Origin: a virus
Taxonomy: Duplodnaviria; Caudoviricetes
Virus record (IMG/VR): IMGVR_UViG_3300045936_000212
Coordinates: 1,206 to 65,205 of that record
DNA length: 64,000 bases
Direction: 5' to 3' (one strand)
Under the pieces are notes generated by a model. That model did no database searches. It was not told where the DNA came from and worked only from the letters and a program-made list of their open reading frames with translations. Made by a program: the position numbers and the translations under genes. Of the stretch, positions 4,290 through 47,851 are shown in pieces; the stretch's first letter is position 1; the number at the start of each line of letters is the position of its first letter.

Positions 4290-4510
4290 TGGACGTGCCG
4301 CTGATCTGCGACCCGGTGCCGGGACCATCGGGGATCATCACGACTTCCCGGCGATTATCAGCGGCTGACGTAGAGCGGTTTCGCAAACGCTGGGCACTCG
4401 TATCGAAGGGCTTCGCAAGTCCGAGCGAAATACTGCCTGCGGCGTATCGGTTCCAACCGTTGACCGCCGGCCGCACCGAATGGCCCGACGCCGAGTATTG
4501 CGCGGCCTGA
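4286..4510 (+). CDS. Hypothetical protein
   Basis: ATGA overlap; fills the operon gap. Confidence 0.55.
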   Translation: MMDVPLICDPVPGPSGIITTSRRLSAADVERFRKRWALVSKGFASPSEILPAAYRFQPLTAGRTEWPDAEYCAA

Positions 4511-4513
4511 CCG

Positions 4514-5830
4514 ATGCGCCTCCTCGTCCTCTATCACGCCGGGTACAGCTACACGCCGACGATCCGGCATTACCTCGAGGCCTTCGGGCGGTACTCGACC
4601 TGCGAGGTCGCGTATTCGAACGTCGACCAGCCCGAATGCATCGATCTTGCATATTTCGACGCGGTTTTGGTCAATTTCTGCGTCACCTCGATGGTGCGCT
4701 TCCCCGAGCGCCTGCCCGAGTTCTTCCCGCCCTTGGCGGCGGCGCTGGCCGGGTTCAAGGGCGTCAAGCTGGCCGCGGTGCAGGACGACTACGACTTCAC
4801 CAACCGGGTGATCGAGTTCCTGGCCCAGATCGGTGCCGACATCGTGCTGACCCCGGTGCCGGCCGAAGGGATTCCGGTCGTCTATCGCGAGCTCGCGAAC
4901 CGGATGCACTTCGAGACGGTGCGCACCGCCTATCTCGTCCCCGGCCTGATCGAGCGCGGTCATTCGCTGCCGCCACTGGCCGAGCGGCCGATCAGCCTCG
5001 GGTATCGCGGTCGCGAACTGCCCTACCGGCTGGGTGATCTCGCCTGGCACAAGGCCGAGGTCGGGCGGCAGTTCAAATGGGCCTGCTCCCGCCGGCATGT
5101 CGCCTGCGACATCGCGATCGATGAGGGAAGCCGGTTTCTGGGCGACGCCTGGCTCGATTTCGTCGCCCGCTGCCGGGTCATGCTGGGCAGCCCCAGCGGG
5201 GCCAACGTCTTCGACTTCGACGGCTCGCTGCACAAGCGCCTCGTCGCGCTCTACCGGCCGGGCCTGCGCTACGGCGAGGTGCGCGACGAGATCCTCGCTC
5301 ACGCGGTCCCGTTCGACATGGGGCAGGTCTCGGCCCGGATCTACGAGGCGGTGGCGTTCGGCACCGCGCTGGCGCTGGTGCGCGGCAATTACTCCGGGGT
5401 GCTCGAACCCGACGAGCACTATGTCCCGATCGAACCCGACTACAGCAATGTCGATCAGGTGCTGGAGCGCATCCTCGACATCCCGGCCATGGAAGCGATG
5501 GCCGAGCGTGCGCTGACCCATGTCACGGGCGATCTGCGCAACCACTACAGCGATTTCGTCGGCCGCATCGACGACCTGATCCTGGCGCGGTGCCACCTCG
5601 GCGGTGGGGTCGCCCACGGGCAGGGGCCTCGGCCCGCAGTCACCGATCACCTGCTCGGCACCGATCCGTACCTGATCCGACAGCTGTTTGAGACCCGGCG
5701 CGCGCTGGCGGAATCCGAGGCGAACCGACGGGAGTTCCTGCAGCTCGCCGCCGAGAGGAGGCTCGAGGTCGTCCGAACCGGCGAGCGAACCTATCAGGTG
5801 CTGCACCGCGCCGAGGCGCGTTCGCCTTGA
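4514..5830 (+). CDS. Glycosyltransferase-like protein (GT-B / CgeB-like)
   Basis: MRLLVLY N-terminal strand, RPISLGYRGR, and SARIYEAVAFGTALALVRGNYSGVLEPDEHYVPI, typical of the Glyco_trans_1_2 C-terminal domain. Confidence 0.75.
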   Translation: MRLLVLYHAGYSYTPTIRHYLEAFGRYSTCEVAYSNVDQPECIDLAYFDAVLVNFCVTSMVRFPERLPEFFPPLAAALAGFKGVKLAAVQDDYDFTNRVIEFLAQIGADIVLTPVPAEGIPVVYRELANRMHFETVRTAYLVPGLIERGHSLPPLAERPISLGYRGRELPYRLGDLAWHKAEVGRQFKWACSRRHVACDIAIDEGSRFLGDAWLDFVARCRVMLGSPSGANVFDFDGSLHKRLVALYRPGLRYGEVRDEILAHAVPFDMGQVSARIYEAVAFGTALALVRGNYSGVLEPDEHYVPIEPDYSNVDQVLERILDIPAMEAMAERALTHVTGDLRNHYSDFVGRIDDLILARCHLGGGVAHGQGPRPAVTDHLLGTDPYLIRQLFETRRALAESEANRREFLQLAAERRLEVVRTGERTYQVLHRAEARSP

Positions 5831-6250: not shown

Positions 6251-7684
6251 ATGCTGGGCCTTCCCGCAGTTCGGCGCGTCTTGGATGCATTCGCGCAGCC
6301 CTTCCGCGCGCCCGTCGCCAGATCGGACGTGCCGGCAACCACGCCGGCACCGCCCGCTGGCTATATCCTGCCGTTGGGCGGCGGATACATTCCGGCGAGC
6401 TGGCCGGTCAATTTCTGGCAGATGGGCTATGACCCGCTGTCCCACGATGCGTCGTCGGTCGTCTACGGCTGCATCGCCGCCTACGCGCAGACCGTCGCGA
6501 TGTGCCCTCCCGCGCATTGGCGCTCGACCGGCGACGGCGGTCGCGAGATGGTCACCACCTCGGCGCTGTCGCGGATCCTGCGCAAGCCGAATTTCTATCA
6601 GTCGCCATCGGACTTCTTCCTCTACCTGACCGACTGTCTCTACCGGCAGGGCGAGGCCTTCGGCCTGGCGCTGCGCAACGAGCGGTTCGAGATCAACCAG
6701 ATCCACCTGATGAACCCGCGGCTCTGTTTTGCGCGGGTCGCGGTCACCGGGGATCTTTTCTACACGCTGGGCGGCAACGAGATCGTCGAGCGGATGTTCG
6801 AGGGCGAACGCTACCTCCTCGACGCCGTGCCGGCCCGCGATGTCCTGCACGTCCGCCTGCCCGATCCCCGCAACCCGCTGAAGGGCTGCCCACCGCTCGA
6901 GGCCTCGCTGATCGAGCGTGCCGCCTCGGAGGCGATGGTGCAGCAGGCGCTCGCCTACGCCAACAATCAGGGTCGCCCGTCGGGGGTGCTGTCGACCGAG
7001 GCGGATCTCAACGAGGAGCAGGTCACGTTTCTGCGGATGCTCTGGGACAAGCAGACCAAGGGTGTCAACCAGGGCGGCACGCCGATCCTGACCAACGGCC
7101 TCAAGTGGGAGTCGGCGGTCATGAACTCGCGCGACGCCCAGATCGCCGAGTTTTTGAAGTTGTCGGATGCGCGCATCGCCACCGCCTATCGGGTGCCGCA
7201 GGCACTTCTCAGCCTAGAGCCGCAGGGGCCGCAAACCTCGACCGAGGCCCTGATGCAGTACTGGGTCGCCACCGGTCTGGGGTTTGCCGCCAACCATATC
7301 GAGGAAGCGTTCGGGCTGCTGTTCGGCCTCGCCGGCCAGCCGATCGAATACATGGAAATGGATTTCGAGGCGCTGCTCCGAGCCAACTTCCGAGATCGCA
7401 TGGAAGGTCTCGCCCGCGCGGTGCAGGGCGGCATCTTTGCTCCCAACGAAGCCCGCGCCCGCGAAGAGCTGCCGAAGAAGCCCTACGGCGACGAACCCCG
7501 CGTGCAGCAACAGGTCGTGCCGCTGAGCGCCTGGGCGCAAACGCCGCCCGCCACCCCCGCCCCGGATGCGCCCCCGTCCTCACCGCCAGCCGGAGATGAA
7601 CCGAATGTCGACGGCAGCACCCAGGAGCAATTCGATTGGGTCCGGGCCATCAACGATGCCGCCGATCGATATCGGGCCGCGTGA
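6251..7684 (+). CDS. Portal protein, HK97 family
   Basis: [59 protein letters not shown] motifs. Confidence 0.95.
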
Positions 7685-9035
7685 GGTCTTCGCCGACGCG
7701 CTGGGTCGGGTGCTGGAGCAGGTCAGGCAGGAGTTCCGGGTAGACCGGCAACTGATGCAGGCCGAGTACGGTCGCACCGTCGCCGAGCTCCGCGCCGAAG
7801 TTTCCGAGCTGAAACTGAAGCTCAACGAGATCATGGCCGAGCGGCTGGCGCAGCTGCATGACGGCAAGGACGGCGAGCCGGGGCCGCAAGGTGATCCAGG
7901 CCCGCAAGGTGAAAAAGGCGAGCCGGGCGCGGCCGGCGACCAAGGGGTTCCGGGTGAGCGCGGTGAGCCGGGCGAGCAGGGGCCTCCCGGCGAGAAGGGT
8001 GAGCCGGGCGAGCGCGGCGAGGCTGGAGAGCGCGGTGAACCGGGCGAGGCTATCAGAGGTGCACCGGGCGAGACGGGCGATCCTGGGCCTCCAGGCGCCG
8101 CCGGAGAGCGCGGTGAACCGGGCGCCCCGGGTGAACGCGGCGAGCCAGGATCTCCGGGTGAGCGCGGTGAGCCTGGCGAGCAGGGGCCGCAAGGGGTTGC
8201 GGGCGAGCGCGGCGAGCGCGGCGAGCCGGGCGCACCGGGTGAGCCGGGGTCTCCGGGCGAGCGCGGTGAGCCGGGCCAGGAGGGGCCGTCGGGGCCACCG
8301 GGTGAGAAAGGTGATCCAGGGGATCCGGGCGAGCGCGGTGAGCGCGGGGAGCCGGGTGACCGCGGCGAGCCGGGCGAGAAAGGTGATCCGGGCCAGGAGG
8401 GCATGCAAGGCCAACCGGGGGAGCCGGGGCCTCCGGGCGAGCGCGGCGAGCCGGGGATACCGGGAGAACGCGGCGAGGCGGGGGTCGCTGGGGAACGCGG
8501 CGATCCCGGCCCAGCGGGCGAGCGCGGCGAGGCCGGGCCTCCCGGCAAGCTGGCCGGCGTCAAGCCCTGGGCGCGCGGTGTTCACTACGAGAGCGATGTC
8601 GTGACGCATCTCGGCTCGACCTGGTGCGCGCTGCGCGACACCGGAGAGGAACCGCCACACGGCGACTGGCTCCTCGTCGCCGAGCGCGGCCAGGACGCTC
8701 CCGTGGGCGAGGTCAGAGGCAGCTATGACCCGACAGCGAAATACCGGCGGTTCGACATCGTCGCCTACAACGGCTCCGAGTGGCGGGCAAAGGTCGATGA
8801 CCCCGGACAACTCCCCGGAGACGGGTGGGCGTTATCTGCACAGAAAGGCGACCGCGGCCGACGCGGCGAACCCGGCGAGCAAGGCCCGCCAGGACCGCAA
8901 GGGAAGGCGGGGGCGACGATCAGCGAGTGGCTGACCGAAGGCTACCGCGCCATCCCGGTGCTGAGCGACGGCACGCTGGGGCCGGCTCTCAATCTGCGCG
9001 AGTTCTTTGAGGCCTACCATGGCGAGGCGCGCTGA
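7656..9035 (+). CDS. Collagen triple-helix repeat protein with C-terminal Trp-rich beta (CBM5/12-like) modules; putative head fibre
   Basis: N-terminal coiled coil, long Gly-X-Y run (about 7860-8550), then [15 protein letters not shown] and [16 protein letters not shown] repeats. Confidence 0.8.
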
Positions 9036-33807: not shown

Positions 33808-33883
33808 TGGCAGGGGTGACCGGAATCGAACCGGCGAATACGGGCTGCACAGGCCCGCGCGTCTACCACTCCGCCACACCCCC
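33808..33883 (-). tRNA. tRNA with GTG (His) anticodon, atypical (no G-1, G1-U72, G73, C37)
   Basis: GGGGGTG-TG-GCGGAGTGGTAGACGC-G-CGGGC-CTGTGCA-GCCCG-TATTC-GCCGG-TTCGATT-CCGGT-CACCCCT-G-CCA; 76 nt with encoded CCA. Confidence 0.88.
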
Positions 33884-33887
33884 TTTC

Positions 33888-33963
33888 TGGTGGATCCGAC
33901 CGGACTCGAACCGGCACATCGGCGCGTTGCAAGCGTCGGCGTCTTCCTTTCCGCCACGGACCC
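33888..33963 (-). tRNA. tRNA with GCA (Cys) anticodon and Ala-type acceptor (G3-U70, A73)
   Basis: GGGTCCG-TG-GCGGAAAGGAAGACGC-C-GACGC-TTGCAAC-GCGCC-GATGT-GCCGG-TTCGAGT-CCGGT-CGGATCC-A-CCA; 76 nt. Confidence 0.88.
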
Positions 33964-41997: not shown

Positions 41998-42436
41998 GCG
42001 CCGGCTCCTCGAATTGCAGCGGCAGCTCGGCCGGCTTGATCTGCTGATACGGGTTGGCGCGCGGGTCGTTTGGCCGATGGCGTTCCAGCCATTGCAGATG
42101 CGCCACCCGGTAGCTGTATTCGGCGGCGGTGATCGGTTGCGCATAGGCCCAGTGCCCGACGGGGCGCGGGGTCTGGAGCGAGGGATCGGCGAGCGCCGCC
42201 ACCGCCTCGTCCGCCCGCAAGGTGCCGTCGCCGCAGCGGCGCCAGACCCCGAGCCGGTCGAGCAGCCGTTCGGGCGGCACTTCGCGGCCGGCGATCTCGG
42301 CGCGCGGGAAGACCGAGAGCGCGCCGCGGTCGAGCCGGTTCTCCGGATCGGCCGGGTCGTGGTCGCACAACCAGAGCCGCGCCGGGACGAGCGGGGCACC
42401 CCGGCGCAGCCGCAACAGAAAGTACCGTGGCGTCAT
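41990..42436 (-). CDS. Conserved phage hypothetical protein
   Basis: YFLLRLRRGAPLVPARLW..PITAAEY..HRPNDPRANP; start set after the repeat array. Confidence 0.7.
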   Translation of the reverse strand: MTPRYFLLRLRRGAPLVPARLWLCDHDPADPENRLDRGALSVFPRAEIAGREVPPERLLDRLGVWRRCGDGTLRADEAVAALADPSLQTPRPVGHWAYAQPITAAEYSYRVAHLQWLERHRPNDPRANPYQQIKPAELPLQFEEPAHA

Positions 42437-42450
42437 TGCCCTGTTCCCCC

Positions 42451-42962
42451 GCCTGCCATGCCTTGCCGTGCCCTGCTCAGCCGAGACTTGCCGAACCATG
42501 CCTGCCGCGCCGGGCCTCTCGCAGCCGAGCGACGCGACGCCCTGCCAAACCGCGCCTGCCGTGTCCGCCCTGGGCTCGCCACGTTCGAGCCATGCCTGCC
42601 GCGCCCCGACAAACCCCGCCTTGCCACGCCGTGCCGTGCCCAGCCTTGCCTGCCTTGCCTGCCGAGCGTTGCCGGGCGTTGCCGGGCGTTGCCGCGCCCT
42701 GCCGTGCCGTGCCGTGCCTTGCCTGCCTTGCCTGCCTTGCCATGCCTCGCCCAGTCTTGCCCGGTCGTGCCAAGCCCTGCCTTGCCTGCCGCGCCATGCC
42801 CCGCCGAGCCGGGCTTTGCCGCGCCCGACCCGGCCGTGCCCTGCCGGCCAATCGGTGCCGTGCCCGGCCCTGCCTGACCGCGGCGTGCTAAGCCGTGCCC
42901 CGCCTGCCATGCCATGCCCGGCCGAACCATGCCTGTCCGGGCCAAACCGAGCCGCGCCTGCC
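42451..42962 (-). ncRNA. Array A of GGCA+(GGY-NN)n units, putative guide-RNA array
   Basis: Delimiter GCCTGCC (+) at 42451, 42500, 42554, 42594, 42648, 42657, 42721, 42730, 42784, (42843 variant), 42902, 42956; spacings mostly 4+5n nt. The RNA role is inferred. Confidence 0.75.
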
Positions 42963-42980
42963 ATGCGAAAAGGTTCGCCC

Positions 42981-43415
42981 TCACGCTGCTTCTTGATCCG
43001 GCGGTTCAAGCAGCGCGAAAGCGTCGATCGAGCGGAACAACCCGGCCAATTCACGGTCGAGGTGCCGGTGCCGATCGCGCCAGCGGATGAGTTCGGTCAG
43101 CGCCTCTCTGGCGGCGAGCCGGCGCATCTCCTCCGAGGACATCGTCGCGCCCATGTCGCGATAACCGCCGCCGACACTGCGGTCGATCATCAGGCTGATG
43201 GTTTGCCGGTGGCCGACATCGTCGACGACATGGATCGCGATCAACTGGCGCGCCTGGATCAGGCGGTAGCGCTCGCCTGCGACGGCATCGTCCCAGACAA
43301 AAGCGCGATAGAGCGCCGAGTCCGGGTTCTGGCGTGCCCAGTCGATGGCGATCGACGGGTAAATCCGCCCATCGGTTGCCCGCAACGCGACGAGTTCCGC
43401 GCCGATCCGGGTCAT
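42981..43415 (-). CDS. Partner protein of the RAMP-like gene (144 aa)
   Basis: ARQNPDSALYRAFVWDDAVAGERYRLIQARQLI; ATGA-coupled to 43412-44230. Confidence 0.8.
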   Translation of the reverse strand: MTRIGAELVALRATDGRIYPSIAIDWARQNPDSALYRAFVWDDAVAGERYRLIQARQLIAIHVVDDVGHRQTISLMIDRSVGGGYRDMGATMSSEEMRRLAAREALTELIRWRDRHRHLDRELAGLFRSIDAFALLEPPDQEAA

Positions 43416-44230
43416 GCGACGATCTCGAAAAGCCCCCAACCGAGCCCATTGGAATTCGGGCTGTTGGGGCGACCCTCCCCGACGCCGACCTGAAGCCCGG
43501 CGCGGGCGATCAGATTGACGACATCGCCGGCGCTGAACTGATCCGCATCCCAGCGGACCCTCAGCATCAACTCCCACTCGTGCCAGATCGGGCGCCAGCG
43601 CAGGTCGGCGCCACCGTTCGCATTGCGGCCCCAGCCTTTGTGGATTTCGGGCTGGCCCTTGACGATGCGCACGAGCGGCGTGCCGTCTTCGGCATCGAAC
43701 CCGTCCGCCTCGATAAAGATCGTCAGCTTGGCGTGGGTCATTTTGTAGCCGACGAGCCGGCAGGCATCGATCGCCGCATTGCGGAAGGCCGGTGCCGGGA
43801 TGCCGTGCCAGCCCTCGCGGCTGATGTGCTGCGCCGCCTTGTAGCCGGCCTCGAAGTCGCGCGCCTCGCGCTTCTTGCGGGACCGCGCCTGCGTTCCGGC
43901 GCGCTGCGTCTCCTCCATCTGCGCCTGCGCCTTGGCCGAGAATTTGTGCTGCACATAGGGCGAGATCCCGCGCAGATGCAGGACGGCGGTCTGCATCCGC
44001 GGCGGGCTGATCACCACCTTCAGGTCGCCCGCCTTGACCGCCTCGATCTCGGCCCGCGTGACCGCCGGGATCTTGCCGCGCAGATCGACCGTCTCCTCGC
44101 CGACCGGCACCGTCGGGGTCGAGCGTCGCGTCCGCCGTGGCGGCGCTGCCGGGGTCGGAGCGGCGGCGCCATTGGTGCGCCGGGGGCGCCCGCGCGGCTT
44201 CGGGGCCGGCGGGTCGAATTGCATCGTCAT
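43412..44230 (-). CDS. Stand-alone Cas7/RAMP-like protein
   Basis: GGAGG RBS; TAVLHLRGISPYVQH, HGIPAPAFRNAAIDAC, RPIWHEWELMLRVRW, and C-terminal Gly-rich loop GLQVGVGEGRP..GLGWGLFEI; N-terminal PRGRP AT-hook-like motif. Confidence 0.75.
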   Translation of the reverse strand: MTMQFDPPAPKPRGRPRRTNGAAAPTPAAPPRRTRRSTPTVPVGEETVDLRGKIPAVTRAEIEAVKAGDLKVVISPPRMQTAVLHLRGISPYVQHKFSAKAQAQMEETQRAGTQARSRKKREARDFEAGYKAAQHISREGWHGIPAPAFRNAAIDACRLVGYKMTHAKLTIFIEADGFDAEDGTPLVRIVKGQPEIHKGWGRNANGGADLRWRPIWHEWELMLRVRWDADQFSAGDVVNLIARAGLQVGVGEGRPNSPNSNGLGWGLFEIVA

Positions 44231-44341
44231 CGGTTCCTCCACACCAAAAAGCCCCGGCTGCGACTGCCGTCGGGGTGCCGATGGCTCGGGCTGTCGCTCG
44301 GCGCGAACGTGCCGCGAACAGCCCGGCCAGGTCTGACGAGG

Positions 44342-44575
44342 CTTGTGTCTGGCCTGTGTCTAAAACCCGGCGCAAAACCCCTTTTCGTTCCGGTTTTGGC
44401 GCTGTCGGAGAACGCGCCGGAACTCGCTAAGCCAGTGGAAATACTGGCGTTTTTCGATTGCGCCGGGGAAGCGCCGGCTGTTGCCGAAGCAGGTATGCAT
44501 CGCCCTCTAACCCGTTCTCTTATCATGTGGTTTTCGCTCGTCGCCCGCGCCCTTGTGTCAGCCCTGTGTCTGAAA
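44342..44575. other. Putative attP region with paired integrase arm-type repeats
   Basis: CTTGTGTCTGGCCTGTGTCTAAAA (44342-44365) and CTTGTGTCAGCCCTGTGTCTGAAA (44552-44575), 21/24 identical, at the integrase 3' end. Confidence 0.65.
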
Positions 44576-45809
44576 TGCGGGGTTGTGCCGCCGCCGCCGG
44601 CTCAACCAGACCCCCATCCTCAACCGCAACGGGTAAAATACCGGTGGGCAAAACACCCTCCAACCCGCCGGTCTCTAACCCACCGGTCTGGCGGAACCGC
44701 GCCTGCCGCTCTTCGAGCCGCGCCAAGGCGTCGGCGACATCCTGGGTCGTCGTCTGGGCGTAGCGCATCGTGGTGCGGATATCGCTGTGCGCCATCGCCT
44801 GCTGCACCCGGCCCAACGGCGCGACGGCCGCCAGCCTTGTGCCAAAGGTATGCCGCAGATCGTGAAAGCGCAGCGTCGGCAACCCGATGGCGCGGCGCGC
44901 CTTGACCCAGTCGCGGCGGAAATTGCCGCCATCGGCGACCAAGGGATAGCGCTCGCCCCGCTTCCGGCCGGGGGCGGGGTGACGGCAGAGATAAGTGAAG
45001 ACGTATGCCTCGTGCCGGCCGCGCTCCAGACTGAGGAGCGCCCGCATCCCCTGGGTCAGCGGTAACAGATGCTGCTTGCCGCCCGGCTTTTTCGACTTGG
45101 TGCGAAAGGTGATAAACCCGAGATCCCAGTCGATCTGCTCCCATCGCAGCGCCAAGGCGTTCTCCCGGCGCACCCCCGACAGGATGGCAAAGCGGATGAC
45201 CGGGCGGAAATCCTCGCGCATCGCCGCCAGCAGCATCTCCTCCTTCTCGCCCTCCGGCAGGATCGTCTGCCGGTTGTCGGGTTCCTCCAGCCACAACGAG
45301 GGGCCCTTGGTGCTGCGCCACTTCAACTCGGGCACCTTGAACCCCCAGGCGGCGCAGGCATTGACGATCGAGCGCAGATGCGCCGTCTCGCGGTTGACGC
45401 TGGCATTAGAGAGGCTGGCCCGGCGACCGGCGACAAAACTCGCCAGCCGCCCGAAATCCAACGACGACAGCAAGACCTCCGCCCCGAGCTCGTCGATCAG
45501 CGTGCGGTTGTGGATCTGCGCCTGCCGCGCCGTCTTCCAGTATTGCGACACATCGGTCCAGTGCCGCACCACCGCCGCCTTTAGCGTGATGTCGGGTTTC
45601 TCCCCGGTGTATTTGCCGAGGAGCGCCGCCGCGCGGGTTTGCGCCGCGAGGGTTTCGGCGATGTCCCGGTCGCCTGTGCCAAGGCACTTGCGAAATCGAG
45701 GATAGCCCCGGACGGTGAAACTCTCGTAGTAGACCTCGCCGCGGAGCTGGACGAGGCTCGTCCGCCCGCCTTTTGGTTTTGCGCCTCCTCTTGGTTTTGG
45801 TGCTGCCAT
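44523..45809 (-). CDS. int: Tyrosine integrase
   Basis: SGVRRENALALRW (R), TKSK (K), FHDLRHTFGT (HxxR), MAHSDIRTTMRY (H, Y). Confidence 0.95.
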   Translation of the reverse strand: MAAPKPRGGAKPKGGRTSLVQLRGEVYYESFTVRGYPRFRKCLGTGDRDIAETLAAQTRAAALLGKYTGEKPDITLKAAVVRHWTDVSQYWKTARQAQIHNRTLIDELGAEVLLSSLDFGRLASFVAGRRASLSNASVNRETAHLRSIVNACAAWGFKVPELKWRSTKGPSLWLEEPDNRQTILPEGEKEEMLLAAMREDFRPVIRFAILSGVRRENALALRWEQIDWDLGFITFRTKSKKPGGKQHLLPLTQGMRALLSLERGRHEAYVFTYLCRHPAPGRKRGERYPLVADGGNFRRDWVKARRAIGLPTLRFHDLRHTFGTRLAAVAPLGRVQQAMAHSDIRTTMRYAQTTTQDVADALARLEERQARFRQTGGLETGGLEGVLPTGILPVAVEDGGLVEPAAAAQPRISDTGLTQGRGRRAKTT

Positions 45810-46057
45810 CCGCCCAACTCCTGTTTTTGAATGTACGAGATGAGATCGTTCGGTTTGAACCGCCGGGTCTTGCCGATCTTGACCCAGCGCAGCCGCCCGG
45901 CGGCAATCTCGTCGACCAGCGTCTGACGGCTGATGCCGAGCGCCTTCGCCGCCTCGCCCTGGCGGATCAAAAGCCGGCCGCGGGCAATCTGCTGCAGCCG
46001 TTCCTCCAAATCGAGGCTGAGGCTGTCGACCCTCAGGGTCGGGGGATCAGCGCTCAT
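45581..46057 (-). CDS. xis: Excisionase-like HTH protein
   Basis: LLIRQGEAAKALGISRQTLVDEIAAGRLRWVKIGKTRRF; immediately upstream of int and overlapping it. Confidence 0.8.
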   Translation of the reverse strand: MSADPPTLRVDSLSLDLEERLQQIARGRLLIRQGEAAKALGISRQTLVDEIAAGRLRWVKIGKTRRFKPNDLISYIQKQELGGWQHQNQEEAQNQKAGGRASSSSAARSTTRVSPSGAILDFASALAQATGTSPKPSRRKPARRRSSANTPGRNPTSR

Positions 46058-46086
46058 TCAAACTCCTGCCCGCCAACTCCTGCCCG

Positions 46087-46723
46087 GCCTGCCAAACCAG
46101 GCCAAACCATGCCTTGCCGTGCCCTGCCTCAGACCGAGCCCTGCCGAGCCGCGCCTGCCGTGCCCTGCCATGCCCTGCCGAGCCGTGCCGAGCCGCGCCT
46201 GCCGCGCCCTGCCGGGGCAACCCAAGCCCCGCGCTGCCTTGCCGCGCCTGCCGTGCCCTGCCATGCCAAGCCGGGCCGTGCCAAACCGCGCCTGCCGGGC
46301 CATGCCGTGCCACGCCAACCCCCGTCCCGCCTAGCCTGCCGCGCCGCGCCTGCCCGGCGATGCCAAGCCATGCCGGTCCAGGCCCTGCGGTTGCTTGCCT
46401 TGCCAAGCCCTGCCTGCCCGCCGTGCCGAGCCGAGCCGAGCCTTGCCCTGCCTCACCGTGCCGAGCCTGCGGTGCCGAGCCCTGCGGTGCCAAGCCGGGG
46501 CACGCCCAGCCTGCCTGCCGAACCGAGCCGCGCCGAGTCGAGCCTTGCCTTGCCGGGCCAAGCCTGCGGTGCCGCGCCCTGCCATGCCATGCTCTGCCGG
46601 GGCAGGCCTTGCCGCGCCTGCCGTGCCGGGCCAAGCCACGCGCTGCCGGGCCGGGCCTTTTTGCCACGCCTGCCCTGCCTGGCCCTGCCAGGCGACGCCA
46701 AACCGAGCCGCGCCGAGCCTGCC
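46087..46723 (-). ncRNA. Array B of GGCA+(GGY-NN)n units, putative guide-RNA array
   Basis: Delimiters at 46087, 46153, 46197, 46246, 46290, 46334, 46348, 46412, 46465, 46509/46513, 46562, 46616, 46668, 46717; most spacings 44, 49, 54 or 64 nt. The RNA role is inferred. Confidence 0.75.
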
Positions 46724-46813
46724 CTGCCAGCAGAATGCGGATGGCTTCGTGTTTCGTCTGGGCCATGCCGGGGCCTCGGGGGGGTTCCACCGGCCCCGAG
46801 CCTACCGCCGGCT

Positions 46814-46852
46814 TTGCAGATCGTGCAAGAGGGGAGTTCGTAACTTTTACAA
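46814..46852. promoter_or_regulatory. Tandem operators / leftward promoter upstream of array B
   Basis: TTGCAGATCGTGCAA (46814-46828) and TCGTAACTTTTACAA (46838-46852). Confidence 0.6.
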
Positions 46853-46860
46853 GAGGCGGG

Positions 46861-47022
46861 TTAGCAGTCGCCCCGGTGCCGCTTCTCCCACTCGATCACC
46901 GACTTGACAAAGTCGGCCCGCAGCTGGTCGGCGTCAAACACCGACGCGCCGCCGTCCTGGCGGGTGACGCAGTCGTCAAACAGGTCTTTGATCTCTTCGA
47001 ACACGTCCTCGACGGTCCCCAT
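46861..47022 (-). CDS. 53-aa acidic protein (not in ORF track)
   Basis: MGTVEDVFEEIKDLFDDCVTRQDGGASVFDADQLRADFVKSVIEWEKRHRGDC*; typical codon usage. Confidence 0.6.
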   Translation of the reverse strand: MGTVEDVFEEIKDLFDDCVTRQDGGASVFDADQLRADFVKSVIEWEKRHRGDC

Positions 47023-47254
47023 GATGTGTGCCCCCACACTTGCTCTTCTTTGGCCCGACCCTGCCGCGCACGGCGGCGCCCCGGTCGAGGGCTGCGCGCA
47101 CTCTCATCGCCTGTCGGCCCTCCCGTTCCCAAGGGGCAGTCACGCTAACCTTATGGGTGTATTCGGAAAGTATGTCGTCGCTTATCGCGCGTTTATTGCA
47201 TCATGAAGGCGCGGCATGCCCCGGCGTCAAGTGAGGTTTTTTATCATTCCGGAT

Positions 47255-47851
47255 TCATCTGTCTCGATCTGGTTTGTCGCCGTCGGCGCTGACCGTATCG
47301 GCCGGCTCCTCCTTGGCGTCAATGGCGGTCACCTTGCCGCCGCCTCGCTCGACAACGATGTCCGGTTTGCGCCGCAAGGTGCGCCCGAAATGCTCGACCG
47401 TCTCGGCCAGCATCTCGCCCTGCACCAGGGCGTCCCTGACCAGCGTGATGGCGTCGGCGATCTGCGTCTCAAAGGTTTTGATCTGCACCTGAATGGTGCC
47501 CTGAAAACTCTTGAACGCGGCATCGAGGGTGGAGAGCGTCGCCAGCGCCGTCTGCAGCGAGCCGGCGAGACCAAACTCCTCCTCGGTCGAAACCGCCGTC
47601 TCCTGTAGTTCGCGCGGCACGTTCGGATCGCGCCCGAGCAGGTCGGAGACCGAACATCGGTAGGTCTTCGACAGCGCCATCAAGACATGCGCAGTGATGG
47701 TCGCCCGGTTGGTCTCGATGTTGCTGACGCGGGTCGCGGGCCAGTTGTTCAACTCTTCGACCTTGGTCTGGCTCAGACCGCGAAACTGCCGCCATTCCTT
47801 AAAGTAATTGGGAAAAGGTTCGCGCGCGGCGACACGCCGGCTGCCGCTCAT
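47255..47851 (-). CDS. CI-like XRE repressor
   Basis: NYFKEWRQFRGLSQTKVEE..TRVSNIETNR..SVSDLL; divergent from a Cro-like gene; no S24 peptidase domain seen. Confidence 0.8.
   Translation of the reverse strand: MSGSRRVAAREPFPNYFKEWRQFRGLSQTKVEELNNWPATRVSNIETNRATITAHVLMALSKTYRCSVSDLLGRDPNVPRELQETAVSTEEEFGLAGSLQTALATLSTLDAAFKSFQGTIQVQIKTFETQIADAITLVRDALVQGEMLAETVEHFGRTLRRKPDIVVERGGGKVTAIDAKEEPADTVSADGDKPDRDR

What the first reader, a model, noticed from the sequence alone, without database searches (positions are those of the whole stretch)
42451..46852. Candidate non-CRISPR RNA-guided system: lone Cas7/RAMP-like protein, partner gene and GGY-NN pentamer arrays
Seen: on the minus strand, gene 43412-44230 is ATGA-coupled to gene 42981-43415. 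A small hairpin (GCGAA-CCTT-TTCGC) follows, then about 510 nt of units of GGCA + n x (GGY-NN). A second array with the same grammar lies at 46087-46723. The protein has RAMP-like hallmarks: first strand ending SP (LHLRGISP), an IP-led helix (GIPAPAFRNAA, compare RAMP IPGSSxKG) and a terminal Gly-rich loop (GVGEGRP..GLGWGLFEI). No cas1/2/3/5/6 and no repeat-spacer CRISPR array are visible in the window. Known: Cas7-type RAMPs polymerise on guide RNA with a fixed nucleotide period. Inference: one subunit binds each pentamer, gripping constant GGY and displaying variable NN, so each 44-64 nt unit is a guide encoding a gapped target. With no nuclease nearby, silencing of competing phages or host genes is the likely output. 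From memory this resembles the recently reported phage 'VIPR' systems; that match, and thus novelty, needs checking.
Basis: partly seen in the sequence, partly recalled or inferred. Interest (0 to 1): 0.96.

Follow-up and report, generated by a model that had tools for sequence, protein, structure and literature searches.

The report
Phage VIPR system, staggered guide arrays
This soil phage carries a VIPR system, a CRISPR-related RNA-guided DNA silencer first described in 2026 preprints, so the finding is real but is a new member of a known kind.

Summary
Two minus-strand arrays (42449-42962 and 46066-46728) are built of GGY-NN pentamers. They are cut into units of 8-13 pentamers by a one-base overlap at GGCAG|G. 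The 272-aa gene (43412-44230) has a Cas7/Csm3-like RAMP fold (Z 10.5). By profile search its only relative in the PDB is the SUSP1 Vipr protein (E 1.7e-6).

In 76 of 80 related viral loci, GGY-NN runs lie on the gene's strand, against 14 of 80 on the other strand. In 71 of 80 the 144-aa partner is also present. The same GGCAG|G punctuation recurs in 84 of 113 related loci.

This matches the published VIPR system (bioRxiv 10.64898/2026.04.26.720920), including its 'staggered' arrays. The scan has noted VIPR before on other DNA (567 notes in at least 244 genomes).

Features particular to this phage:
- An excisionase-integrase pair sits between the upstream array and vipr (0 of 113 related loci).
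- Both arrays run straight into the ribosome-binding site of the next gene.

I found no convincing natural target. Seven of 18 guides were tested in public collections. All 18 were tested against the phage itself and 113 related loci.

Transcription evidence is weak: only short metatranscriptome contigs.

The parts
46066..46728 (-). Upstream vrRNA array (array 2). It holds 10 units of at least 8 GGY-NN pentamers plus fragments, punctuated by GGCAG|G one-base overlaps. It ends 8 nt before the excisionase start codon.
   Evidence: Two other soil DNA runs show a 1-nt deletion at 46133.
46729..46860 (-). Leader between a 58-aa ORF (46861-47037) and array 2. It may hold a promoter, but none was demonstrated.
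   Evidence: sequence. The sigma-70 consensus scan found 0 sites in 42200-47100. An RNA-library contig covers 46784-47000.
45800..46057 (-). Excisionase-like helix-turn-helix gene (86 aa).
   Evidence: Pfam HTH_17, E 8.4e-10. phrog_66 excisionase/regulator, E 4.2e-06.
44523..45809 (-). Tyrosine integrase (428 aa), lying between array 2 and vipr.
   Evidence: Pfam Phage_integrase, E 1.7e-18. phrog_1, E 5.5e-45. No homologue (E <= 1e-5) within the flanks of 113 related loci.
44342..44580 (.). Two 29-nt direct repeats (83% alike, 210 nt apart) that straddle the integrase stop and the int-vipr spacer. They are candidate integrase arm sites or attP. This is inferred only.
43412..44230 (-). vipr: a 272-aa single-RRM RAMP protein with a disordered Pro/Arg-rich N-terminal extension (about residues 1-70) and a core at residues 76-272.
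42981..43415 (-). vap-like accessory gene (144 aa), ATGA-coupled to vipr. The N-terminal 94 residues look weakly winged-helix-like.
   Evidence: phrog_15946, E 2.6e-11. A homologue is present in 71 of 80 viral loci, mostly right after vipr. Model mean pLDDT 92.5. Fold matches are weak.
42965..42978 (-). A 5-bp hairpin between the vap stop and array 1.
   Evidence: No function was tested.
42449..42962 (-). Downstream vrRNA array (array 1). It holds 8 units of 10-13 pentamers, two 9-nt mini-units and one degenerate 40-nt stretch. It ends 12 nt before the next ORF's ATG at 42436.
   Evidence: An RNA-library contig at 42919-43076 bridges the vap 3' end and the first 44 nt of the array.

Best explanation
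This is a VIPR (Viral Interference Programmable Repeat) system in a temperate tailed phage from soil.

Proposed mechanism, step by step:
1. The two arrays are transcribed on the minus strand. This is inferred, with only weak RNA evidence.
2. The transcript is cut at or near each GGCAG|G junction into vrRNAs of about 8-13 pentamers. This is inferred from the published 'staggered array' architecture.
3. Vipr protomers polymerise on each vrRNA, one per pentamer. They bury GGY and present the NN pair. This is shown for SUSP1 Vipr and inferred here from homology, fold and three identical contact residues.
4. The filament reads double-stranded DNA as NN-x-NN-x, skipping every third base. This is shown for SUSP1 and inferred here.
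5. No nuclease gene is adjacent and the partner looks like a small DNA binder. The output is therefore most likely transcriptional silencing of genes of competing mobile elements in the same host. This is inferred, and no target was identified.
For: Homology:
- The only PDB sequence matched with E below 0.01 is the SUSP1 Vipr protein (36pp_D). E was 0.061 with the single protein, 7.8e-5 with a 32-sequence profile and 1.7e-6 with a 48-sequence profile.
- The alignment covers beta-1 and the thumb-to-G-loop stretch.

Fold:
- Foldseek gave 23 PDB matches at E <= 0.001. The ones listed are all Csm, Cmr, type III-D or type VII complexes.
- VIA gave Z 10.5 against Csm3 over residues 77-272.

Contact residues:
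- The structure preprint names five SUSP1 residues that hold GGY: H17, R138, D177, W178 and R179.
- In the HMM alignments they align here with H95, R213, E252, G253 and R254. That is 3 identical, 1 conservative and 1 lost.

RNA grammar: see the observation check.

Linkage with the gene:
- 76 of 80 IMG/VR loci have at least one run of 4 or more GGYNN on the gene strand, against 14 of 80 on the other strand.
- Of all 113 loci, 98 have runs downstream of vipr, 28 upstream and 20 on both sides.
- 611 of 739 frame breaks in those arrays are 4-nt steps.
- The pentamer before such a step is GGCAG in 351 of 367 cases.
- The commonest unit length is 10 pentamers.

Guide variability: no guide here matches a unit in a related locus at more than 0.79.

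Phage context:
- Head, portal, tape-measure, RecT, repressor and DnaB families were found.
- G000 is a virus record of 65,205 bases.

RNA: contigs from two metatranscriptome runs cover the vipr/vap junction, vap, the vap-to-array-1 junction and the xis/int junction.
Against: - No natural target was found, so the output is unproven. See Tried and rejected.
- The Trp that stacks on G2 in SUSP1 (W178) aligns with Gly here.
- 27 of 186 pentamers are not GGY, and one 40-nt stretch of array 1 is degenerate. Some units may be dead.
- The RNA evidence comes from assembled contigs of RNA libraries. These may contain DNA. They cover only the first 44 nt of array 1 and none of array 2.
- The partner's winged-helix likeness is below the tool's own noise level (best Z 5.6).
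- The VIPR type (I-VII) could not be assigned. Figures and supplements are not held.
Confidence: 0.85

Rival explanations
1. It is a decayed or differently wired VIPR relative. The protein and arrays descend from a VIPR system, but in this phage they no longer guide DNA binding, or they act on RNA or by another pairing rule.
For: - SUSP1 W178 aligns with Gly.
- 27 of 186 pentamers are degenerate.
- No target was found for any tested guide.
Against: - Gly at that position is invariant in the 32 close homologues and nearly invariant in the 48 cluster representatives, so it is a clade feature and not a lesion.
- Both genes are intact, and they are conserved together in 71 of 80 loci.
- The preprint itself notes frequent internal degeneracy of vrRNAs.
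Confidence: 0.08
2. The system regulates the phage's own lysogeny genes and not those of rivals. On this reading, guides made from the leader of the xis-int message feed back on the phage or on its attachment region.
For: - Array 2 abuts the xis start, and the integrase sits inside the locus.
- In two cultured phages an excisionase gene lies next to the module.
Against: - The best NN-x match of the 18 guides to the phage's own 65 kb is 0.62-0.83, and the mean is barely above the 0- and 2-base-skip controls (0.730 against 0.702 and 0.697).
- The preprint found no self-targets at 80% or above in its systems.
Confidence: 0.04
3. The arrays are not RNA genes at all. They would be low-complexity coding sequence, or a plain pentanucleotide microsatellite or protein-binding iteron field.
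For: Open frames of 183 and 247 aa run through the arrays.
Against: - A 5-nt period with 4-nt steps keeps no reading frame.
- Positions 4-5 are nearly free while 1-3 are fixed.
- The runs are strand-specific relative to vipr, 76 against 14 of 80.
- A homologous system has sequenced, protein-bound vrRNAs.
Confidence: 0.02

Closest known systems
VIPR systems with 'staggered' vrRNA arrays (bioRxiv 10.64898/2026.04.26.720920; Results and the fig. S18 legend read, figures and supplements not held)
   Same: - A lone single-RRM RAMP gene.
- An adjacent small accessory gene.
- GGY/NN pentamer arrays on the same strand.
- Successive vrRNAs that share one base at their boundary.
- A phage carrier.
- No CRISPR array.
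   Different: - An excisionase-integrase pair separates the upstream array from vipr.
- Both arrays abut the next gene's ribosome-binding site.
- The type number is unknown.
- There is no expression or binding data for this clade in what I could read.
Escherichia phage SUSP1 VIPR (type II; PDB 36pp; bioRxiv 10.64898/2026.04.26.720927)
   Same: - Profile-detectable homology (E 1.7e-6).
- Counterparts of H17, R138 and R179 are conserved, and D177 is replaced conservatively by Glu.
- Arrays lie upstream and downstream of a vipr-vap pair.
   Different: - SUSP1 vrRNAs are about 100 nt and end in a structured 3' tail with a pseudoknot. Here only the last pentamer, GGCAG, is constant.
- This Vipr has an N-terminal extension of about 70 residues.
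- This Vipr lacks the stacking Trp.
- The partner showed no detected similarity to any solved chain.
CRISPR type III Csm3 / Cmr4 (Cas7) backbone subunits
   Same: RRM core, thumb hairpin and Gly-rich loop (Z 8.6-10.5 over residues 74-272). Both polymerise on a guide with a fixed period.
   Different: - The period is 5 nt, not 6 nt.
- The constant part is inside every repeat, not in one handle.
- No Cas1 is present, and no CRISPR repeat-spacer array or other RAMP gene was noticed nearby.
- Sequence identity is 6-16%.

Membership tests
VIPR | Vipr protein with a RAMP fold: a single RRM core, a thumb and a glycine-rich loop | tested here: met
   AlphaFold2 model with mean pLDDT 75.7. VIA Z 10.5 against Csm3 9g9f_E (rmsd 3.6, 153 residues aligned), with all 50 listed rows CRISPR RAMP chains. 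Foldseek gave 23 matches at E <= 0.001.
VIPR | Sequence relationship to an experimentally characterised Vipr | tested here: met
   SUSP1 Vipr (36pp_D) is the only PDB sequence matched with E below 0.01: E 0.061, 7.8e-5 and 1.7e-6.
VIPR | Residues that hold the GGY bases (SUSP1 H17, R138, D177, W178, R179) | tested here: inconclusive
   They align with H95, R213, E252, G253 and R254, which is 3 identical, 1 conservative and 1 lost. The alignment comes from HMMER output, not from superposed structures.
VIPR | Tandem GGY/NN (YNNGG) pentamers, at least 4 in a row and 9-16 per vrRNA, next to vipr on its strand | tested here: met
   23 runs in two arrays. There are 18 units of 8-13 pentamers.
VIPR | Arrays linked to the gene across relatives | tested here: met
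   76 of 80 viral loci on the gene strand against 14 of 80 opposite. 98 of 113 loci have runs downstream.
VIPR | Adjacent accessory (vap) gene | tested here: met
   The 144-aa gene is ATGA-coupled. A homologue is present in 71 of 80 loci. Which of vap1-6 it is could not be told.
VIPR | No CRISPR array and no cas adaptation genes | tested here: met
   Cas1 (PF01867) gave 0 matches in the record, while the control hit 7 of 14 known genomes. TRF lists no repeat-spacer array. Other cas families were not searched.
VIPR | vrRNAs expressed and bound by Vipr | not testable with these tools
   Only short contigs from two RNA libraries are available, and one bridges vap and the first 44 nt of array 1. 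No small-RNA data exist.
VIPR | DNA recognition by the one-base-skip rule | tested here: inconclusive
   No natural target was found. The rule itself needs a bench test.
VIPR staggered-array subtype | Neighbouring vrRNAs overlap by one base | tested here: met
   The GGCAG|G junction ends 14 of 18 units here. It accounts for 351 of 367 four-nt steps in related loci. The preprint's wording is in the fig. S18 legend.
CRISPR-Cas class 1 | Repeat-spacer array, adaptation genes and a multi-RAMP effector | tested here: not met
   Only one RAMP gene was seen in the locus.

The most novel reading that the evidence does not exclude
In this phage the guide arrays may be wired into the integration-excision module.
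- Array 2 would be the 5' leader of the xis-int message.
- Array 1 would be the leader of the next early gene.
- If attP lies at the 29-nt repeats between int and vipr, integration would place vipr-vap-array 1 at one prophage end and array 2-xis-int at the other.

Guide supply and processing would then be coupled to the lysogeny decision. Cutting out vrRNAs would also cleave, and so regulate, the xis-int mRNA.
Probability: 0.12. Interest if true: 0.55.

Novelty: new member of a known kind. Interest (0 to 1): 0.3.

Why it matters
- It adds a well-anatomised example of the staggered-array form of VIPR from a high-GC (66%) temperate soil phage.
- It shows that the GGCAG|G punctuation is shared by a very large clade. 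That clade has 2311 representatives at 50% identity with E <= 0.001 and is found on 472 IMG/VR contigs.
- It points to cultured carriers of this clade. These are Mycobacterium smegmatis phages such as BobaPhett, and cyanophage Cy-LDV1.
- In those phages, processing of staggered arrays and the role of the partner gene could be tested at the bench.
- It does not change what is known about the mechanism.

Tried and rejected
Target search. Guides are the NN pairs of each unit joined by one wildcard, with the constant last pentamer left out.

Scans of all 18 guides:
- Own 65-kb genome: best identity 0.62-0.83, and no self-target.
- 113 related loci, 1.9 Mb counting both strands: mean best identity 0.781 against 0.774 for order-shuffled guides.

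Exact scans of IMG/VR with 9-NN cores of six guides:
- Unit 42958: 1 hit, in a low-GC phage. The skipped base falls on codon position 1, and the flanking pairs do not match.
- Unit 42845: 2 contigs with one identical sequence, 19 of 24 bases, with no extension.
- Unit 42650: 0 hits.
- Unit 46467: 6 hits in unrelated contexts and phases.
- Unit 42786: 0 hits.
- Unit 46564: 25 hits.
  - All read in frame as an acidic motif followed by two Phe/Leu residues, Gly and Asn/Lys, with the skipped base at wobble.
  - They fall in at least 12 unrelated ORFs, mostly of low-GC phages.
  - Four contigs of GC 0.58-0.60 carry the match in one shared ORF, which in the one contig tested (L143) is a tail-assembly-chaperone gene (phrog_344, E 1.1e-10).
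  - The pattern read backwards gave 2 hits.
  - I treat this as a common peptide motif and at most a weak candidate. The phage has no homologue of that chaperone.

Other collections:
- The 10-NN guide of unit 42958 in JGI metagenomes gave 1 intergenic hit.
- The same guide in 5 genomes holding related loci, with up to 3 mismatches, gave 1 hit.
- The same guide in 138 genomes of the order of the closest bacterial carrier, with up to 2 mismatches, gave 0 hits.
- The 11-NN guide of unit 42845 in the same 138 genomes, with up to 3 mismatches, gave 17 hits against 17 for the built-in backwards control. The best cluster (2 mismatches) lies in what the ORF translation suggests is a short-chain dehydrogenase gene (read by eye, no family search), with the skip on codon position 1. 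I rejected it.
- Eleven of the 18 guides were never tested against public collections. Exact matching also misses imperfect targets.

Other dead ends:
- Partner gene: no Pfam or NCBIfam family. No PDB sequence match below E 0.78. No Foldseek match at E <= 0.001. Best VIA Z was 5.6. The ESM Atlas returned only unnamed viral clusters.
- Rfam found no ribozyme or other family in the arrays.
- The promoter scan found nothing, and the terminator count was at shuffle level.
- RNA contigs do not cover array 2 or most of array 1. That absence means nothing for small RNAs.
- DNA contigs that join the two arrays have sides of 21-25 nt, and I take them for repeat mis-joins.
- The record has no terminal repeat.
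- NN composition (GC 0.32 at N4 and 0.61 at N5, against 0.66 for the genome) is suggestive of codon positions 1-2, but I did not rely on it.
- I did not run complex prediction, because I make no claim that Vipr and the partner bind.
They may already contain this clade.


Full report
WHAT IS THERE

On the minus strand the region reads, in order:
- a CI-like repressor gene (47255-47851; phrog_8 and phrog_3);
- a 58-aa ORF;
- a 130-nt leader;
- array 2 (46066-46728);
- an excisionase-like HTH gene (45800-46057; Pfam HTH_17, E 8.4e-10);
- a tyrosine integrase (44523-45809; PF00589, E 1.7e-18; phrog_1, E 5.5e-45);
- a 290-nt spacer;
- the 272-aa gene (43412-44230);
- the ATGA-coupled 144-aa gene (42981-43415);
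- a 5-bp hairpin;
- array 1 (42449-42962);
- 12 nt later, the next ORF.

The record is a virus contig of 65,205 bases. It encodes head, portal, tape-measure, RecT, ParB, DnaB and methyltransferase genes. It is therefore a temperate tailed phage. Its GC content is 66%. The runs that hold it are soil metagenomes.

- Tandem Repeats Finder sees period-5 arrays at these two places only.
- GGY-to-GGY spacing is 5 nt in 56 of 87 and 83 of 122 cases, against 5-8% over the whole window.
- Twenty-three of the 24 minus-strand runs of four or more GGYNN units lie in the arrays. Shuffles give about one run per window.
- Positions 1-3 of 186 pentamers carry 1.46-1.65 bits, and positions 4-5 carry 0.20 and 0.09 bits.
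The last pentamer of a unit, GGCAG in 14 of 18 units, shares its final G with the next unit.
- No other position of the units is constant.

THE PROTEIN

- It has no Pfam family and matches phrog_4652, of unknown function.
- The family is very large:
  - 3812 clusters at 90% identity passed E <= 0.001 among 5892 candidates.
  - 2311 representatives at 50% identity passed the same threshold.
  - 472 IMG/VR contigs encode a relative.
  - 33 loci were found in genomes of many phyla.
- An AlphaFold2 model built on 32 homologues has mean pLDDT 75.7, and residues 1-47 are disordered.
- Foldseek returns Csm, Cmr, type III-D and type VII RAMP subunits, 23 of them at E <= 0.001.
- VIA gives Z 10.5 to Csm3 over residues 77-272, and all 50 listed rows are CRISPR RAMP chains.
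- By sequence, the only PDB chain matched with E below 0.01 is 'SUSP1 Vipr protein' (36pp_D). E improves from 0.061 to 7.8e-5 to 1.7e-6 as the profile widens.
- The five SUSP1 residues that the structure preprint says hold GGY align with H95, R213, E252, G253 and R254. The stacking Trp is the one that is lost. The Gly in its place is conserved across the clade.

LINKAGE IN RELATIVES

- In 76 of 80 viral loci the gene strand carries GGYNN runs, against 14 of 80 for the opposite strand, mostly single 4-unit runs.
- Among all 113 loci, 98 have runs downstream of the gene, 28 upstream and 20 on both sides.
- The partner gene is found in 71 of 80 loci, usually right behind vipr.
- In these arrays 611 of 739 frame breaks are 4-nt steps. 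The pentamer before a step is GGCAG in 351 of 367 cases. Units are most often 10 pentamers long. In all, 84 of 113 loci show the pattern.
- Guides are not shared with relatives. The best match was 0.79, over 14 positions.

COMPARISON WITH WHAT IS KNOWN

Three preprints describe VIPR:
- 10.64898/2026.04.26.720920: outline, Results, Discussion, three Methods sections and legends read.
- 10.64898/2026.04.26.720927: outline and two Results sections read.
- 10.64898/2026.10.15.759431: outline, one Methods section and passages read.

They report:
- a lone ancestral RAMP (Vipr);
- an accessory gene (vap);
- vrRNAs of 9-16 YNNGG repeats;
- one protomer per repeat;
- recognition of dsDNA with one skipped base per pair;
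- transcriptional silencing of rival phages and satellites;
- seven types;
- among the array forms, 'staggered' arrays whose vrRNAs derive from 1-nt overlapping positions.

Every testable defining feature is met here (see Membership tests). The finding is therefore a member of this kind, of the staggered form. The type number cannot be given, because figures and supplements are not held.

Differences from SUSP1:
- There is no structured 3' tail.
- This Vipr has an N-terminal extension of about 70 residues.
- The partner is an unrelated protein. Its model is confident (mean pLDDT 92.5). Its fold matches are only weakly winged-helix-like.

WHAT IS PARTICULAR TO THIS PHAGE

- None of 113 related loci has a homologue of this integrase within 5-6 kb. 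The xis-int pair inside the locus is therefore unusual for the clade.
- Array 2 ends 8 nt before the xis ATG, with the Shine-Dalgarno sequence inside its last units. Array 1 ends 12 nt before the next ATG. Both arrays look like leaders within a long minus-strand transcription unit.
- Two 29-nt direct repeats lie 210 nt apart and straddle the int stop. They could be arm sites of attP. That is a guess.
- In two cultured carriers an excisionase lies next to the module:
  - cyanophage Cy-LDV1 (55% identity);
  - Mycobacterium phage BobaPhett (33% identity).
- Both also have GGCAG|G-punctuated arrays. In BobaPhett the array overlaps an annotated 'hypothetical protein'.

EXPRESSION

Two soil metatranscriptome runs hold short contigs over four places:
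- the vipr/vap junction;
- vap;
- the vap end plus the first 44 nt of array 1;
- the xis/int junction.

This is a weak hint of transcription. RNA libraries can carry DNA, and contigs show neither ends nor strand.

An independent DNA run holds the whole 4.7 kb in one contig, with three substitutions and one deletion. The gene order is therefore not an assembly accident of one sample.

TARGETS

The details are in Tried and rejected. In short:
- There is no self-target.
- No guide is aimed at the related VIPR loci.
- Seven of the 18 guides were also run against public collections, without a convincing natural target.
- One guide spells a common acidic peptide motif. Four of its 25 hits share one ORF in phages of GC about 0.6, a tail-assembly-chaperone gene in the one contig tested. 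I rate that candidate at about 0.15.

The mechanism therefore rests on homology, not on an identified victim.

VERDICT

It is a new member of a known kind. The scan has noted VIPR many times on other DNA (567 notes in at least 244 genomes).

Noticed in passing
window 44342-44370 and 44552-44580: Two 29-nt direct repeats (83% alike) lie 210 nt apart and straddle the integrase stop codon and the spacer before vipr. They may be integrase arm sites or attP.
   Followed up: partly
window 46057-46075 and 42436-42460: Both arrays run straight into the Shine-Dalgarno sequence and ATG of the next gene (xis at 46057, a 148-aa ORF at 42436). The arrays would therefore be 5' leaders of those messages.
   Followed up: no
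window 44180-44200 (residues 11-17 of Vipr): An AT-hook-like Arg-Gly-Arg-Pro motif sits in the disordered N-terminal extension. A like motif occurs in the first 120 residues of 5 of 270 stored homologues.
   Followed up: partly
L160:2656-2907 (Mycobacterium phage BobaPhett) and L159:3644-3795, 4451-4583 (cyanophage Cy-LDV1): Cultured phages carry the same clade of vipr with GGCAG|G-punctuated arrays. In BobaPhett the array overlaps annotated gene 51 ('hypothetical protein'), probably a mis-call. An excisionase gene lies next to the module in both.
   Followed up: partly
window 46133: Two other soil DNA runs lack one base inside array 2. Three substitutions (42533, 43380, 43547) also separate the copies.
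   Followed up: no
window 33808-33883 and 33888-33963: Two adjacent phage tRNA genes, His(GTG) and Cys(GCA), lie on the minus strand.
   Followed up: no
window 7935-8537: Long 9/18/27-nt Gly-X-Y-type (collagen-like) repeats lie inside the 489-aa ORF 7566-9035 of the structural module.
   Followed up: no
L143:11391-11726 and the like in L123, L130, L135: In L143 a tail-assembly-chaperone gene (phrog_344) from a phage of GC about 0.6 matches all 9 tested NN pairs of the guide at 46515-46564, wobble-phased; L123, L130 and L135 carry the same match in a near-identical ORF that was not itself run against PHROGs. This may be chance, because the same motif occurs in at least 11 other unrelated ORFs.
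   Followed up: partly
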